Below, in pieces: positions 2,368-22,676 of a DNA stretch of 25,967 nt. Both the position numbers and the translations under genes were made by a program. Under the pieces are notes generated by a model. It made no database searches, was not told where the DNA came from, and saw nothing but the letters and a program-made list of their open reading frames with translations. Location: the IMG/VR virus record IMGVR_UViG_3300037608_000084, positions 1 to 25,967 of that record; one strand, written 5' to 3'. Each line of letters begins with the position of its first letter. The stretch's first letter is position 1. This DNA is from a virus. Taxonomy: Duplodnaviria > Caudoviricetes.

Positions 2368-2802
2368 TTATTTCGCTCCTTCTGTCAGATAATCCGTCAA
2401 GGCTTGTTTGATTTCTACCCAGTCCTCATTCTGCACCATGAGATACGGGCGCGCCGGTATTCTTACTTTATGTCCCCTGCCTGCCATGCCGCCCAGTTGA
2501 TGTATTCTTCCATATGGTATTGACGCTGCAGGGCCAAGCTCAACCCTGTTTCGAAATGCCTTGTAATTGATGGAATTCTTTAATATCGCCCGGTCAATAA
2601 GTGTCTTGCCGCCTGTTTTAAGCGCCCTTTTTGATGGCTGCCATCTGTTCGGCCTGCCGCTTGCGTCGAAGTTTTTAAGAATCGAGCGGCGCACAATGCC
2701 GCCTATTGTCTCCATCACCGGACTAAGATTCCCTGTCCGGTTCATGAGGTTCATAAGCATTGTCCTAACTTCTCCGTCCTTGATCTCAACCTTTATCTGC
2801 AC
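2368..2802 (-). CDS. Phage virion morphogenesis protein (Mu gpG-like)
   Basis: 144 aa with F...G.P..W..S, L...L.NSI, YGRIHQLGG and IPARPYL motifs; lies between MuF and the protease. Confidence 0.9.
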   Translation of the reverse strand: MQIKVEIKDGEVRTMLMNLMNRTGNLSPVMETIGGIVRRSILKNFDASGRPNRWQPSKRALKTGGKTLIDRAILKNSINYKAFRNRVELGPAASIPYGRIHQLGGMAGRGHKVRIPARPYLMVQNEDWVEIKQALTDYLTEGAK

Positions 2803-2830
2803 TTGACAATCCCCGTTAAGGTGCTATAAT
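2803..2830 (+). promoter_or_regulatory. Consensus sigma70 promoter antisense to the late operon
   Basis: TTGACA (2803-2808), 16-bp spacer, extended TGc plus TATAAT (2825-2830). Confidence 0.85.
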
Positions 2831-2836
2831 GTAAAT

Positions 2837-2901
2837 ATCTCTGCTGTGGGCCATGTTCCAATACGGCAAAGACCGGTGGACTTTTACATGGGGAAGTGAC
2901 C
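2837..2901 (+). ncRNA. Putative structured small RNA: two hairpins with kissing loops
   Basis: Hairpin 1 (2838-2872) has loop CCAUGUU. Hairpin 2 (2875-2901) has loop ACAUGG. The loops pair over 6 bp, and G-U pairs favour the + strand. Starts ~6 nt after the -10 box. The 3' end is not defined. Confidence 0.6.
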
Positions 2902-2907
2902 ATCCTA

Positions 2908-4038
2908 TTATCTTTCATAGATCAAAATCCCTTTTCTGATACTGTCCAGATAATTTGCCTGTCCGACTTTCAAAAATGTATATGACAACCATTGGCCCCT
3001 TGCCCCTTCAGCGACAAATAACAACCTCTGATTCCTGCCGGTTTCCACAAAAGACACATACCTCTTTCTTAGTACAACCTTGCCGGTCTCGTTTTCTTTC
3101 TCTGCCTGAAGCCATATTTCGTAAGGAGATTTTACAACCTCTTCGATAAGAGGAAGGTATCTCTCCCGTCCGTCAATTTTCAGGTGGTTTATAAATTCAT
3201 CGTTAAGAATAAGAGGGTCGCCAACGACATCTTTAAGCGTCTTGCCCATCAAGTTTGCTTTGTATAGCTCAACCGCCTTTTCTCCTTTCGGCCACAACGC
3301 GGTATTGGATAGTATATAGTCACTTACTGTTTTTGCCGATTCCCGGCCATAGTTGTCAAAGGTCTCTTGAATAAGCGGTGTCCATCTGGCCGGATCACCC
3401 TTAAGTCTTTCAAACTGTTCGCCGGTAAGCATTCTCCCCATGCCTTCGCCGGGATTATTTTTGAACCCTGCATCGGCAATATCGGGCAGGTCGTTTTCTA
3501 CCTTCAGCCCATCCCGGTCAAGTTCGCTTTTCGAGACGCTCACCACTGTGCACCGGCAGTTAAAACCATTTGGCGGGAAGTTTCGTGTCCAGAAGGGATC
3601 GTCATGCGGCGCCACCTTCCCGTTCATCGCTGCATGAAGCGGCCTTGTCCTGCCGTCCATGACCGCCACATACTGCCAGTACGGCCTTGTTTGCGTTGTC
3701 CGCATCAGTTGCTGATAATGTCCCGCCTGAAACGCCGATTGTACGTTTGTCCGGAAAACCGTGTCGAGCCGGTAAGGTTGTTCGCCGCCCCATCCCCGCA
3801 GGGCTTCCGCTTCTTTCACCGACTTTTTAAAGTCTGCGAATGTCGTCTTCTCGGAAATGGCTTTATCCATGGCATTATAGAAGTCTCCCATTATATCCAT
3901 CCGTGTGATCCCGGATACGGTAAATGCCTTTGCCCGCGCTTCATCGGTCAGTAGACGGTACTTGTCCGGCGTAAGGGCCGTCTTGTCCTTGAAGGTCTTT
4001 ATCGCTTCATCAAATGTCGGTGTGGCAAACTCAATCAT
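2908..4038 (-). CDS. MuF (SPP1 gp7-like) minor head protein with C-terminal PBECR2-like nuclease domain
   Basis: N-terminal RLDTVFRTN, YWQYVAVMDGRTRPLH and PPNGFNCRC motifs. C-terminal RERYLPLIEEVVKSPYEIW...LRKRY...YTF...YLDSIRKGILIYER fits the PBECR2 pattern. Confidence 0.85.
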   Translation of the reverse strand: MIEFATPTFDEAIKTFKDKTALTPDKYRLLTDEARAKAFTVSGITRMDIMGDFYNAMDKAISEKTTFADFKKSVKEAEALRGWGGEQPYRLDTVFRTNVQSAFQAGHYQQLMRTTQTRPYWQYVAVMDGRTRPLHAAMNGKVAPHDDPFWTRNFPPNGFNCRCTVVSVSKSELDRDGLKVENDLPDIADAGFKNNPGEGMGRMLTGEQFERLKGDPARWTPLIQETFDNYGRESAKTVSDYILSNTALWPKGEKAVELYKANLMGKTLKDVVGDPLILNDEFINHLKIDGRERYLPLIEEVVKSPYEIWLQAEKENETGKVVLRKRYVSFVETGRNQRLLFVAEGARGQWLSYTFLKVGQANYLDSIRKGILIYER

Positions 4039-11067: not shown

Positions 11068-11190
11068 GGCCCTCTTCTTCGGCCCCATCTTCTCTTTCCC
11101 GCACTTTGAACACTTGTAATACCAATAAAACGTATCCTGGCCAAATCGCTTCATCTCTCCGTCACAGTTCCAGCAGGGTATGATATTCAT
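11050..11190 (-). CDS. Small zinc-ribbon protein (46 aa)
   Basis: MNIIPCWNCDGEM...YYKCSKCGKEK...; ATGA overlap with the HNH gene. Below the ORF-track cutoff. Confidence 0.7.
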   Translation of the reverse strand: MNIIPCWNCDGEMKRFGQDTFYWYYKCSKCGKEKMGPKKRAGGLDD

Positions 11191-11987
11191 GCCGCCACCC
11201 TTGCGAGGCCGTGTACCTTCACTTCCAATTTTGTTAATGCCAGCGCGCTGGGCTTTAATTCAACGGGCGTTTCGGCATACCACCGGTTCAGGTGTAGCAA
11301 CTCGGCACGGCTGACGAGCCTTAAATTGGCGATCCCGCAGTTACTTCTATTGCCGTCGGCGAAAATCACCACGCTGCCCGCGGGAACGGGCCCATGATGC
11401 TGCTCCCAGACCACGATGTGCTTCAGCTTATACCGCGTCGGAAACCCGGTGTAAGGGTCTTGCTCATTGATCTTTACCAGGACGTATCCTTGTCTGGGAT
11501 CTATCCGTTCCGATCCTACGGGCTTTCTGTTGGGCGGATTCGAGCCGGTCTTGAAACTCCCGGAATTGGGGACGGTGAGACCCTGGCCTTTGGTGCCGTT
11601 ATTCCACGGCTTGTGGCCTTTTTCAAAGCGCCCGGTCCGACCGGAGACAATACCGCGATTGTGCACAAAAGTCTTGATTTGCTGCTCTGTTCTGTCGGTT
11701 TGAAAGTGCTCGTTGAAAATTGCGGTCAGCTCGGCCAGGCTCCGACCCGGGTAATTGTCCCGGAGAAATTGCGCCTGATCGGGTGTGTAGAGCCGGGACA
11801 GCATCAAATGCTTGCCATACGGCCTGCCGCACTTAATGCCGTGGTTTTTGAGTGCCGCCCGAATTGAGCTCTCCGTATAGTCCGTGCCAAATTGAGCGTT
11901 GAATTTCGGCACGAGGTCTCTGATCAGCATTGCCACATATCCGGCTTTCAGAAACTCCAGATGCTCCTGTATATATTTATGTCTCAC
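11187..11987 (-). CDS. HNH endonuclease domain protein
   Basis: RFEKGHKPWN, KPVGSER and KHIVVWEQHHGPVP.G..V.F.DGN..N....NL motifs. Confidence 0.88.
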   Translation of the reverse strand: MRHKYIQEHLEFLKAGYVAMLIRDLVPKFNAQFGTDYTESSIRAALKNHGIKCGRPYGKHLMLSRLYTPDQAQFLRDNYPGRSLAELTAIFNEHFQTDRTEQQIKTFVHNRGIVSGRTGRFEKGHKPWNNGTKGQGLTVPNSGSFKTGSNPPNRKPVGSERIDPRQGYVLVKINEQDPYTGFPTRYKLKHIVVWEQHHGPVPAGSVVIFADGNRSNCGIANLRLVSRAELLHLNRWYAETPVELKPSALALTKLEVKVHGLARVAA

Positions 11988-21334: not shown

Positions 21335-21578
21335 TATTCCCTTAGAATTGAGAGTGGCATTCAGAAAAGACTGGATCAAACGCAAGGGAAGTCCGCAAAA
21401 CATGGTATGGATCATGAGGCCGGAGGATATTAAATAACTTATGTAATGTAACATATGTTATATGGGGGATGTGGTAAATGGAATTTTTGCTTATCTGGTT
21501 TCTGTTCGGTATGGTCGCGGCGACATCGCAAACTCAAGAGGGCTAAAGGCTTTCAATAAAATAAATAGGGGGATTACT

Positions 21579-22676
21579 ATGGACTTCAAAGATCAAATTA
21601 AAAGACTGGGAGAAAAAGTATCAAAACTGCGCGAGCAGATACAAACCGAAGAGGCCACAAAGAATGCGTTTGTTATGCCATTTATTAATGCCCTCGGATA
21701 TGACATTTTTAATCCTGAAGAGGTCGTCCCTGAGTTTGTGGCTGATATTGGTATTAAAAAGGGAGAAAAGGTTGACTATGCAATACAGAGAAACGGTGCT
21801 CCAGTCATTTTAATTGAATGTAAGTGGTGTAGTGATAGCCTTGATATTTATAATTCTCAGTTATTCAGATATTTTCATACAACACAAACCCGGTTTGCCC
21901 TTTTGACAAACGGCGTATTATACCGCTTTTATACTGATCTCGTTGAACCTAATAAGATGGATGAAAAACCGTTTTTAGAATTTGACATAACAGCCATAAA
22001 AGACACGGTAATAGAGGATCTAAAAAAATTTCATAAGTCGTATTTTGATGTAGACCAGGTGCTTTCGGCTGCCAGCGAATTAAAATACACAAATGAAATA
22101 AAGGCGATTATGGCTGCCGAATTGGCGGCACCGTCACAGCCTTTTGTCCGGTTTTTTACAAAAAAGATATATCCGAAATTGATTACGGAAAAAGTTGTGG
22201 CACAGTTTACTGAAATAATAAAGAAGTCTCTTCATCAATTTATAAATGACATGATTAATGACAGATTGAAATCCGCTCTTGCGCAGGAAAGCGCGGCCAC
22301 TAAGAAAAAGGAAACATCGGGGAAAATTGAGCCGGAGCCGGTTGTTTCGGAAGAAGCAAAGATCATAACGACCGAAATTGAGAAGGAAGGTTACTTTATT
22401 GTAAAGTCTATTTTAAGAAACACTGTTGATCCAACACGGATAGTTTACAGAGACACGCAATCTTATTTGAATATCTTACTGGATGATACAAACAGAAAGC
22501 AAATATGCCGCTTATATTTGAACGCACAGAAAAAGTATATAGGTATTTTTCAGGAAAAAAAGGAAACAAAACATGAAATATTGACCATTGACGATATATA
22601 TAAATATGCAGAAGCCTTAATAAGTATTATAAAGGTATATAATGGAGATGTGGAGGAAAATCTAAAAAGTTTGTAA
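21579..22676 (+). CDS. Standalone restriction-endonuclease-like protein (type I HsdR N-terminal PD-(D/E)xK domain)
   Basis: TEEATKNAFVMPFI.ALGYD.FNP.EV.PE..AD.G.KKGEKVDYAI...IECK...LTNG; AGGGGG RBS before ATG 21579. Confidence 0.88.
   Translation: MDFKDQIKRLGEKVSKLREQIQTEEATKNAFVMPFINALGYDIFNPEEVVPEFVADIGIKKGEKVDYAIQRNGAPVILIECKWCSDSLDIYNSQLFRYFHTTQTRFALLTNGVLYRFYTDLVEPNKMDEKPFLEFDITAIKDTVIEDLKKFHKSYFDVDQVLSAASELKYTNEIKAIMAAELAAPSQPFVRFFTKKIYPKLITEKVVAQFTEIIKKSLHQFINDMINDRLKSALAQESAATKKKETSGKIEPEPVVSEEAKIITTEIEKEGYFIVKSILRNTVDPTRIVYRDTQSYLNILLDDTNRKQICRLYLNAQKKYIGIFQEKKETKHEILTIDDIYKYAEALISIIKVYNGDVEENLKSL

What the first reader, a model, noticed from the sequence alone, without database searches (positions are those of the whole stretch)
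2803..4038. MuF-PBECR2 nuclease with no immunity ORF, facing a kissing-loop small RNA: candidate RNA-antitoxin system in a phage head module
Seen: the 105-bp gap after the MuF stop holds no plausible immunity gene. It is fully occupied by a perfect opposite-strand promoter (TTGACA-16-TGcTATAAT) and two adjacent hairpins: UCUcUGCUGUG-GG[CCAUGUU]CC-aa-UACGGCAaAGA (2838-2872) and GGUggACUUUU[ACAUGG]GGAAGUgACC (2875-2901). Their loops are perfectly complementary over 6 nt. Four G-U pairs work only on the + strand, the strand the promoter transcribes. Known: MuF proteins with C-terminal toxin domains are usually followed by a protein immunity gene, PBECR domains are predicted RNases, and type III TA antitoxins are pseudoknotted RNAs that bind their RNase. 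Inference: a lysogen-expressed structured RNA binds or decoys the virion-delivered nuclease, acting as RNA-based immunity.
Basis: partly seen in the sequence, partly recalled or inferred. Interest (0 to 1): 0.88.

Follow-up and report, generated by a model that had tools for sequence, protein, structure and literature searches.

The report
Kissing-loop RNA guarding phage MuF nuclease
In many Mu-like phages a conserved DNA element predicted to make a small RNA with two interlocking loops sits tail-to-tail with a head protein that ends in a predicted RNA-cutting domain, and it likely acts as an RNA antidote to that domain, a job that in the papers read here on this toxin family is done only by proteins.

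Summary
The structure is real and widespread; its function is inferred. The window alone is weak (folding z 0.03), but homologues decide it. In 88 distinct PBECR2 loci, fixed windows behind the stop codon pair over 6 or more bases in 40, against 7.1% of swapped pairs; a convergent promoter occurs in 45, against 3 on the other strand. The loop-loop helix shows compensatory changes in 6 of 7 and 4 of 6 pairs. None of 16 short MuF genes has it. MuF-metallopeptidases carry a small convergent protein gene in the same slot. Four loci hold extra copies without their own gene, including two from different clades in a prophage remnant with no MuF or PBECR2 nearby. That is how orphan immunity genes look. 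Against: transcription, toxicity and binding are untested; 13 of 15 domains lacking the predicted catalytic His keep the RNA; a 41-codon ORF crosses the gap. No Rfam match, no paper found in 10 searches. The scan noted a similar MuF-RNA pair on another genome. Verdict: new RNA family; RNA immunity about 55%.

The parts
2908..4038 (-). MuF minor head protein with C-terminal PBECR2 domain (376 aa); predicted active-site His285 and Thr354; family-conserved Glu307 and Arg368
   Evidence: Pfam; translation; conservation; residue numbers; AlphaFold2 model pLDDT 94.5
2914..3246 (-). PBECR2 domain coding stretch
   Evidence: E 5.4e-25
2803..2830 (+). Convergent sigma70-type promoter, -35 at 2803-2808, extended -10 at 2825-2830; overlaps the ribosome-binding region of the gpG-like gene on the other strand
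   Evidence: conserved in relatives
2837..2901 (+). Predicted ~65-nt kissing-loop small RNA (start inferred 7 nt after -10; 3' end not defined)
2838..2872 (+). Hairpin P1 with a 2-3 nt bulge below the loop-closing stem; loop 1 at 2851-2856
   Evidence: helices 85% and 96% paired over 23 sequences
2875..2901 (+). Hairpin P2; loop 2 at 2886-2891, complementary to loop 1
   Evidence: kissing helix 86% paired, 4 of 6 pairs compensatory; P2 62% paired, partly misaligned
2793..2918 (-). 41-codon ORF crossing the gap, probably incidental
2368..2802 (-). gpG-like virion morphogenesis gene (next gene of the late operon)
   Evidence: PF05069
4035..5624 (-). Mu-type portal gene (upstream neighbour)
   Evidence: PF06074

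Best explanation
The gap holds a conserved convergent promoter and a covarying two-hairpin kissing-loop element that is likely transcribed as a small RNA, and this RNA likely binds and blocks the predicted RNase domain PBECR2, so that it would serve as the immunity factor of a MuF toxin. Shown here: the element, its covariation, its strand, its fixed position just behind the PBECR2 stop codon, its absence behind short MuF genes, and orphan copies. Inferred: (1) the host-type promoter on the strand opposite the late operon keeps the RNA present in the lysogen; (2) the loop-loop helix locks a compact fold whose shape, not loop sequence, is read by the protein; (3) the RNA occludes the active site or acts as a poor substrate; (4) it protects the producer during virion assembly and protects lysogens from MuF-PBECR2 ejected by kin phages, while naive cells are hit; (5) copies from other clades are kept as cross-immunity.
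For: Blind loop pairing 40 of 88 vs 7.1% swapped; promoter 45 of 88 antisense vs 3 of 88 sense vs 4 of 517 control windows. Compensatory changes in all helices. Loop 2 ends a median 16 nt from the stop codon in 56 curated loci. 0 of 16 short MuF genes reach 6 bp in the same test; Mu gp30, whose domain is predicted inactive (PMC5512222 section 19), overlaps gene G with no gap. Three MuF-HExxH proteins have a homologous 79-89 aa ORF converging from the opposite strand in the same slot, two with TTGACA upstream; two other MuF-CTs have an overlapping 119-aa ORF. Orphans: the extra copy in L098 best matches the RNA of L058 and is followed by a remnant of an L058-like gene end; the extra copy in L058 best matches the RNA of L098; the two proteins lie in separate subclades; L080 carries an L044-type copy. 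L190 holds two copies of two clades with intact loops in a Mu remnant (GemA, Mor, protease fragment) with no MuF or PBECR2 in 3 kb. Loop sequences vary freely (38 distinct loop-1 hexamers in 56 loci), which fits a structural lock, not a guide. The three longest end branches of the tree are RNA-less domains. Top fold matches are CdiA-CT and colicin D tRNases, weakly (Z 5.2, 4.7, 4.5).
Against: Transcription, toxicity and binding are all untested. The predicted catalytic His does not predict the RNA: 70 of 72 domains with it and 13 of 15 without it have an RNA; six of the 13 have another His a few residues later. L093 and L135 keep the His but show no RNA next to the gene or behind the inserted gene. 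In one tight protein clade (L044, L079-L081) the adjacent RNA differs in shape, so pairing is not strictly one to one. Orphan copies could be passive leftovers of recombination. The loci are related, so counts overstate independent events. Iyer et al. suggest PBECR domains may not attack host tRNA or rRNA at all (PMC5512222 section 19). Same-strand ATG ORFs of 30 or more codons are in modest excess (36 of 56 vs 26.4 +/- 3.6).
Confidence: 0.55

Rival explanations
1. The RNA is cargo or cofactor: PBECR2 binds it, MuF carries the complex into the head, and it is ejected with the DNA to act in the next host (decoy for host RNases or CRISPR effectors, or activator of the domain).
For: RNA kept in 13 of 15 domains lacking the His; the best conserved residues include Arg, Trp and Glu outside the predicted catalytic pair; Iyer et al. 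propose RNA binding for the inactive Mu domain (PMC5512222 section 19).
Against: A host-type promoter opposite the late operon suits lysogen expression better than virion loading (inference); orphan copies without any PBECR2; Mu gp30 has no gap for an RNA.
Confidence: 0.17
2. Antisense silencing: the convergent promoter and transcript repress leaky late-operon expression of the toxic gene or of gpG; the kissing fold only stabilises the transcript.
For: The RNA is complementary to the late mRNA between MuF and gpG, and its promoter overlaps the gpG ribosome-binding region; only 21 of 56 loci have a U-rich tract after P2, so transcription may run on into MuF.
Against: An antisense RNA needs no conserved tertiary helix; some loci have a terminator-like hairpin before the stop codon (L030, L035, L044, L009); orphan copies have no cognate mRNA.
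Confidence: 0.1
3. Prophage defence sensor: MuF-PBECR2 or a fragment is held inactive by the RNA in the lysogen and is released when an incoming phage shuts off transcription, as in abortive-infection type III systems.
For: Same binding logic as type III TA, which act in phage defence (PMC12283969, passages).
Against: The toxin gene lies inside the late head operon between portal and gpG with no own promoter found, so lysogen expression is not expected.
Confidence: 0.07
4. The 41-codon ORF overlapping the MuF end encodes an immunity peptide, and the RNA structure is a separate element.
For: Overlapping ATG start as in coupled immunity genes; ATG ORF excess 36 vs 26.4 (1 of 200 shuffles); 16 of 33 substitutions among three close relatives fall on third codon positions.
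Against: The ATG arises from the conserved Tyr-Gly codons of the protein end (28 of 56); only 9 of these 28 share one frame over both loops; 17 of 30 changed codons are non-synonymous; any-start ORFs are not in clear excess (12 of 200); peptides of different clades are unrelated by eye.
Confidence: 0.06
5. A phi29 pRNA-like ring: the two loops pair between molecules and the oligomer helps the portal or packaging motor (pRNA features recalled, from no call).
For: Two complementary loops; position in the head module next to portal.
Against: Absent behind 16 of 16 short MuF genes and in Mu; follows PBECR2 onto an HK97-type portal-MuF-PBECR2 fusion (L139); kept in a remnant without portal.
Confidence: 0.04

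Closest known systems
MuF polymorphic toxins with protein immunity (Jamet 2017 PMC5576092; Apk2 and Bxa, PMC11699363; passages read)
   Same: MuF domain with a C-terminal toxin-like domain in the head module of a temperate phage; a small partner directly behind it; extra non-cognate partners proposed.
   Different: [quoted passage not shown]
Type III toxin-antitoxin systems ToxIN, CptIN, TenpIN (PMC12283969, passages read)
   Same: Predicted endoribonuclease paired with a pseudoknotted RNA that would inhibit it directly.
   Different: There: tandem repeats upstream, same strand, shared promoter, terminator before the toxin, H-type pseudoknot, ToxN-like toxin. Here: single copy, downstream, opposite strand, own promoter, loop-loop kissing fold, BECR-type domain fused to a virion protein.
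AbiF with its RNA RCd22 (bioRxiv 10.1101/2025.04.15.648962, abstract and section list only)
   Same: Prophage-encoded toxin neutralised in trans by direct binding of an associated ncRNA.
   Different: Abi_2/AbiD/F (Cas13-linked) stand-alone toxin, two abiF motifs; not a virion protein; other RNA fold.
DUF3800, drum and skipping-rope RNA motifs (Weinberg 2017 PMC5737381, passages read, supplement not readable)
   Same: Several unrelated RNA folds tied to one protein domain, in either orientation, function unknown.
   Different: Other protein domain; no Rfam model matched these loci.
PBECR domains (Iyer 2017 PMC5512222, section 19 read whole; BECR classification bioRxiv 10.64898/2026.08.28.747851, passages)
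   Same: This protein is a PBECR2 member with the His plus Thr configuration.
   Different: In the parts read neither paper mentions an RNA partner.

Membership tests
PBECR2 (PF18810) | Profile match above the curated cut-off | tested here: met
   81.4 bits vs 27.1
PBECR2 (PF18810) | [quoted passage not shown] | tested here: met
   His285 in helix H44-48 of the model, Thr354
PBECR2 (PF18810) | BECR fold by structure comparison | tested here: inconclusive
   Top VIA rows CdiA-CT Z 5.2 rmsd 3.4 over 80, colicin D Z 4.7 rmsd 3.1 over 78: below the tool's reliable range; no Foldseek match at E 0.001
PBECR2 (PF18810) | RNase activity | not testable with these tools
   predicted only (PMC5512222)
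MuF polymorphic toxin | MuF domain with C-terminal toxin-like domain in the head module of a temperate phage | tested here: met
   terminase, portal, MuF, gpG, protease; transposase-like, AAA_22, Gam, Mor genes in the window
MuF polymorphic toxin | Small immunity protein gene directly downstream | tested here: inconclusive
   Only a 41-codon ORF without conserved frame or family match
MuF polymorphic toxin | Toxicity neutralised by the neighbour | not testable with these tools
   needs expression tests
Type III TA (ToxIN, CptIN, TenpIN) | Antitoxin upstream on the same strand, shared promoter, terminator before the toxin | tested here: not met
   RNA is downstream and convergent
Type III TA (ToxIN, CptIN, TenpIN) | Tandem antitoxin repeats | tested here: not met
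   One copy in the window; tandem copies elsewhere are of different clades
Type III TA (ToxIN, CptIN, TenpIN) | Pseudoknotted RNA | tested here: met
   Loop-loop helix with covariation, but kissing type, not H-type
Type III TA (ToxIN, CptIN, TenpIN) | ToxN-like toxin | tested here: not met
   Pfam assigns PBECR2 and no ToxN family
Type III TA (ToxIN, CptIN, TenpIN) | RNA binds and inhibits the toxin | not testable with these tools
   no protein-RNA tool or experiment available
Any Rfam 15 family | Match at gathering score | tested here: not met
   0 in the window; none at this position in 40 PBECR2 loci or 6 further loci
phi29 pRNA-like packaging RNA | Tied to the packaging motor in all members (recalled) | tested here: not met
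   Absent in Mu and behind 16 of 16 short MuF genes

The most novel reading that the evidence does not exclude
Phage MuF-PBECR proteins form a polymorphic toxin class whose immunity factors are structured RNAs: each toxin clade has its own RNA fold (kissing-loop for most PBECR2, other folds for other PBECR2 clades and PBECR3-like tails), the RNAs travel with the toxin 3' end, and phages and bacteria collect orphan RNAs into small poly-immunity arrays that exclude rival phages.
Probability: 0.4. Interest if true: 0.92.

Novelty: new variant of a known kind. Interest (0 to 1): 0.85.

Why it matters
In the papers read here every tested immunity factor of a MuF toxin is a protein, and RNA antitoxins belong to stand-alone intracellular toxins. 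An RNA antidote to a virion-borne nuclease would join these two kinds, add a third RNase fold controlled by RNA, and explain why many MuF-PBECR genes lack an immunity ORF. It also gives a direct handle on the open question of what MuF toxins and PBECR domains do. The RNA family is new whatever its job, and cultured phages carry it (Thermus phage Riverbug on T. thermophilus HB8, Meiothermus MMP17, Leptolyngbya Lsp-JY19, Rhizobium RR1-B), so the test is cheap.

Tried and rejected
Single-sequence folding energy: not significant. Rfam: nothing at the element; the one hit, sRNA-Xcc1 in L087, lies 1.8 kb away and was set aside. Expression: no RNA holder listed; the one run laid does not cover the gap; neither is evidence. 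RNAalifold on the first 50-row alignment found only 3 pairs because of misregistration. Model R1 had an off-by-one structure and was dropped as a model; it did first flag the extra copies in L058 and L098, which R2 and direct reading confirmed. The automatic hairpin detector scores both strands alike (34 vs 35 of 88), so it says nothing on strand, and it misses many clear cases. Whole-genome model scans scored only about 60 candidates per genome and missed known copies (G029, G210), so they do not prove exclusivity: 5 hits in 160 genomes, 2 beside PBECR2 genes (training rows), 1 beside a degraded PBECR2-like frame (L191), 1 orphan (L190), 1 false positive inside a coding gene (L189). Plasmids: no PBECR2 relative. 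Foldseek PDB: no match. PBECR3 genome search gave 3 matches, one MuF-fused. A structure prediction of the 41-aa peptide with PBECR2 was not obtained. The His-less clade could not be widened by a collection scan. Literature: 10 searches found no description of this RNA; the library lacks most subscription papers, and the supplement of Weinberg 2017 could not be read and may bear on novelty.

Full report
Setting. The window is a 25,967-base linear virus record, about 51% complete, of a Mu-like phage: terminase, portal, MuF, gpG-like gene and protease on the minus strand, with transposase-like, AAA_22, Gam, GemA and Mor genes upstream. Close relatives carry source names in Syntrophorhabdus, Syntrophobacterales, Spirochaetota and a deltaproteobacterial MAG. 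The 376-aa MuF ends in PBECR2 with the predicted His285 and Thr354. Its AlphaFold2 model is confident (pLDDT 94.5); the best structural matches are CdiA-CT and colicin D tRNase domains at Z 4.5-5.2, which is weak, and Foldseek gave nothing.

Observation. Promoter, both hairpins and the 6-nt loop match are as described. The fold alone is ordinary (z 0.03).

Homologues. Of 137 loci held, 130 had a domain hit and 92 had distinct flanks; 3 ended at the contig edge and one weak hit (L049) was dropped, leaving 88. They are not independent: several are near-identical. By eye (labels) 62 have the plain two-hairpin kissing fold (four imperfect: L089, L097, L098, L104), 8 a kissing helix with one bulge, 3 a variant, 8 a larger multi-stem RNA, 3 another fold and 4 none (L034, L046, L093, L135). 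Blind tests agree. An automatic detector found loop pairing of 6 or more in 34 of 88, against 144 of 1760 shuffles and 32 of 517 control windows. Fixed windows behind the stop codon paired over 6 or more bases in 40 of 88, against 7.1% of swapped pairs. A promoter of at least 9/12 lay on the antisense strand in 45 of 88, on the sense strand in 3, and in 4 of 517 controls; the antisense strand folded more stably in 44 of 56 curated loci. On sequence-only MAFFT alignments of hand-picked rows, the kissing helix was 92.7% paired with compensatory changes in 6 of 7 pairs (16 rows) and 86.2% with 4 of 6 (23 rows including the window); slid controls were 41-50% paired for the whole structures; P2 was only 61.5% paired in the second alignment, where five rows are out of register. 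RNAalifold recovered both hairpins unaided on the 16 rows. Geometry is tight: 34-40 nt between loop starts in 54 of 56 loci, loop 2 ending a median 16 nt from the stop codon. Loop sequence is free: 38 distinct loop-1 hexamers in 56 loci (anchors hand-chosen). The element reaches phages of Thermus, Meiothermus, Leptolyngbya, Rhizobium and Ralstonia and an HK97-type portal-MuF-PBECR2 fusion (L139).

Controls. From 30 MuF loci of a 301-genome sample I examined 23; 7 were PBECR2 loci already held and 2 of the 23 ran off the fetched DNA; 8 more MuF loci came (one, L144, a frameshifted PBECR2 relative, was not scored). None of 16 short MuF genes reached 6 bp in the blind test and 2 had a promoter match; model R3 hit none. 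Mu gp30 overlaps gene G. Three MuF proteins with an HExxH tail have a homologous 79-89 aa ORF converging from the opposite strand, two with TTGACA upstream, and two with another tail have an overlapping 119-aa ORF; that these are immunity proteins is inference. Six MuF proteins with PBECR3-like or unassigned tails show convergent structured stretches of other shapes; I did not test these for covariation. So the slot is empty when there is no tail, holds a small protein gene for some tails and an RNA fold for PBECR tails.

Orphans. L098 has, behind one promoter, an extra copy that best matches the RNA of L058 and is followed by a remnant of an L058-like gene end; L058 has an extra copy that best matches the RNA of L098; the proteins fall in separate subclades; L080 has an extra L044-type copy. 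A genome scan found L190, where two copies, one of the window's clade and one resembling the L095 clade by eye, both with intact loops, stand in a Mu remnant with GemA, Mor and a protease fragment and no MuF or PBECR2 hit in 3 kb. Orphan immunity genes are described for polymorphic toxins and proposed for MuF clusters (PMC11699363, passages). Passive leftovers remain possible.

Against the reading. Nothing shows transcription, toxicity or binding. The His does not predict the RNA (70 of 72 with, 13 of 15 without; L026 partial and Mu left out), though six of the 13 have a His nearby. L093 and L135 keep the His without a visible RNA. Three of the four RNA-less domains have the longest end branches (2.63, 2.11, 1.36), but L035, with RNA, has 1.34 (85 rows, three partial rows left out). 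One clade has two RNA shapes. ATG ORFs across the gap are in modest excess (36 of 56 vs 26.4, 1 of 200 shuffles), but the ATG comes from Tyr-Gly codons and only 9 of 28 share a frame. Only 21 of 56 loci have a U-rich tract after P2, so the 3' end is undefined and antisense run-on is possible. Genome scans were too shallow to prove that the RNA occurs only with PBECR2.

Mechanism. I commit to direct RNA immunity (0.55): a lysogen-expressed compact RNA, read by shape, blocks the PBECR2 RNase of its own and kin phages. Rivals: cargo or cofactor RNA (0.17), antisense silencing (0.10), defence sensor (0.07), immunity peptide (0.06), pRNA-like ring (0.04). That the element is a real structured RNA I put at about 0.95.

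Comparison and novelty. It would work like a type III antitoxin but fails the operon, repeat and toxin-family criteria given in PMC12283969 (passages). It sits where MuF toxins have immunity ORFs (89.4% of 191, PMC5576092, passages). Iyer 2017 (PMC5512222, section 19 whole, other passages) and the 2026 BECR preprint (passages) mention no RNA partner in what I read. AbiF-RCd22 (abstract only) is the nearest functional precedent. Rfam has no match. Ten literature searches found no description; subscription papers and the Weinberg 2017 supplement were out of reach. PMC12189769 and bioRxiv 10.1101/2020.03.17.996009 were read as passages for sRNA-Xcc1 only. pRNA features are recalled. Verdict: new RNA family with very strong comparative support, likely a new variant of toxin-antitoxin control; interest 0.85.

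Noticed in passing
L045, L057, L079, L083 (MuF domain, about codon 165): An in-frame TGA stands exactly at the first Cys of the conserved MuF CxC motif in four loci: candidate selenocysteine MuF. It would also explain the ~240-aa 'solo PBECR2' proteins in databases as gene-calling artefacts. No SECIS search done.
   Followed up: partly
L145, L147, L148, L149, L150, L160, L161, directly behind the MuF stop, opposite strand: MuF proteins with PBECR3-like or unassigned tails also have convergent, strongly folding stretches of other shapes; L145 and L160 share a motif, L148 and L150 resemble each other, L147 has a tRNA T-loop-like heptamer. No Rfam match for the four tested.
   Followed up: partly
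L157, L166, L168: MuF with an HExxH metallopeptidase-like tail and a homologous 79-89 aa ORF on the opposite strand: unannotated candidate toxin-immunity pair.
   Followed up: partly
L182:1401-1760, L183: MuF with an unassigned ~130-aa tail followed by a homologous overlapping 119-aa ORF with a Trp-rich motif: candidate toxin-immunity pair.
   Followed up: partly
L118-L122, L125, L127, L131, L134; L079-L081: Larger multi-stem RNA class and a third fold behind other PBECR2 clades; each deserves its own model.
   Followed up: no
L029, L088, L091, L092, L107, L111, L112: An extra two-hairpin unit lies 5' of the kissing RNA in one protein clade.
   Followed up: no
L087:34-119 (-): sRNA-Xcc1 (RF02221, 63.6 bits) upstream of the MuF gene, unrelated in place to the kissing RNA.
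   Followed up: partly
proteins P0032, P0092, P0136, P0152: MuF-PBECR2 proteins with inteins inserted just behind the MuF domain.
   Followed up: no
L047, L052, L053, L193: Weak PBECR2/3 hits are small stand-alone proteins followed by a short same-strand ORF (DUF2283-like by recall) and show no RNA.
   Followed up: no
L033:1812-1907: GenBank annotates a 31-aa hypothetical protein over the RNA in Thermus phage Riverbug.
   Followed up: no
window 21462-22676 (+) and 11187-11987 (-): An HSDR_N-domain gene on the opposite strand near the early region, and an HNH endonuclease gene.
   Followed up: no
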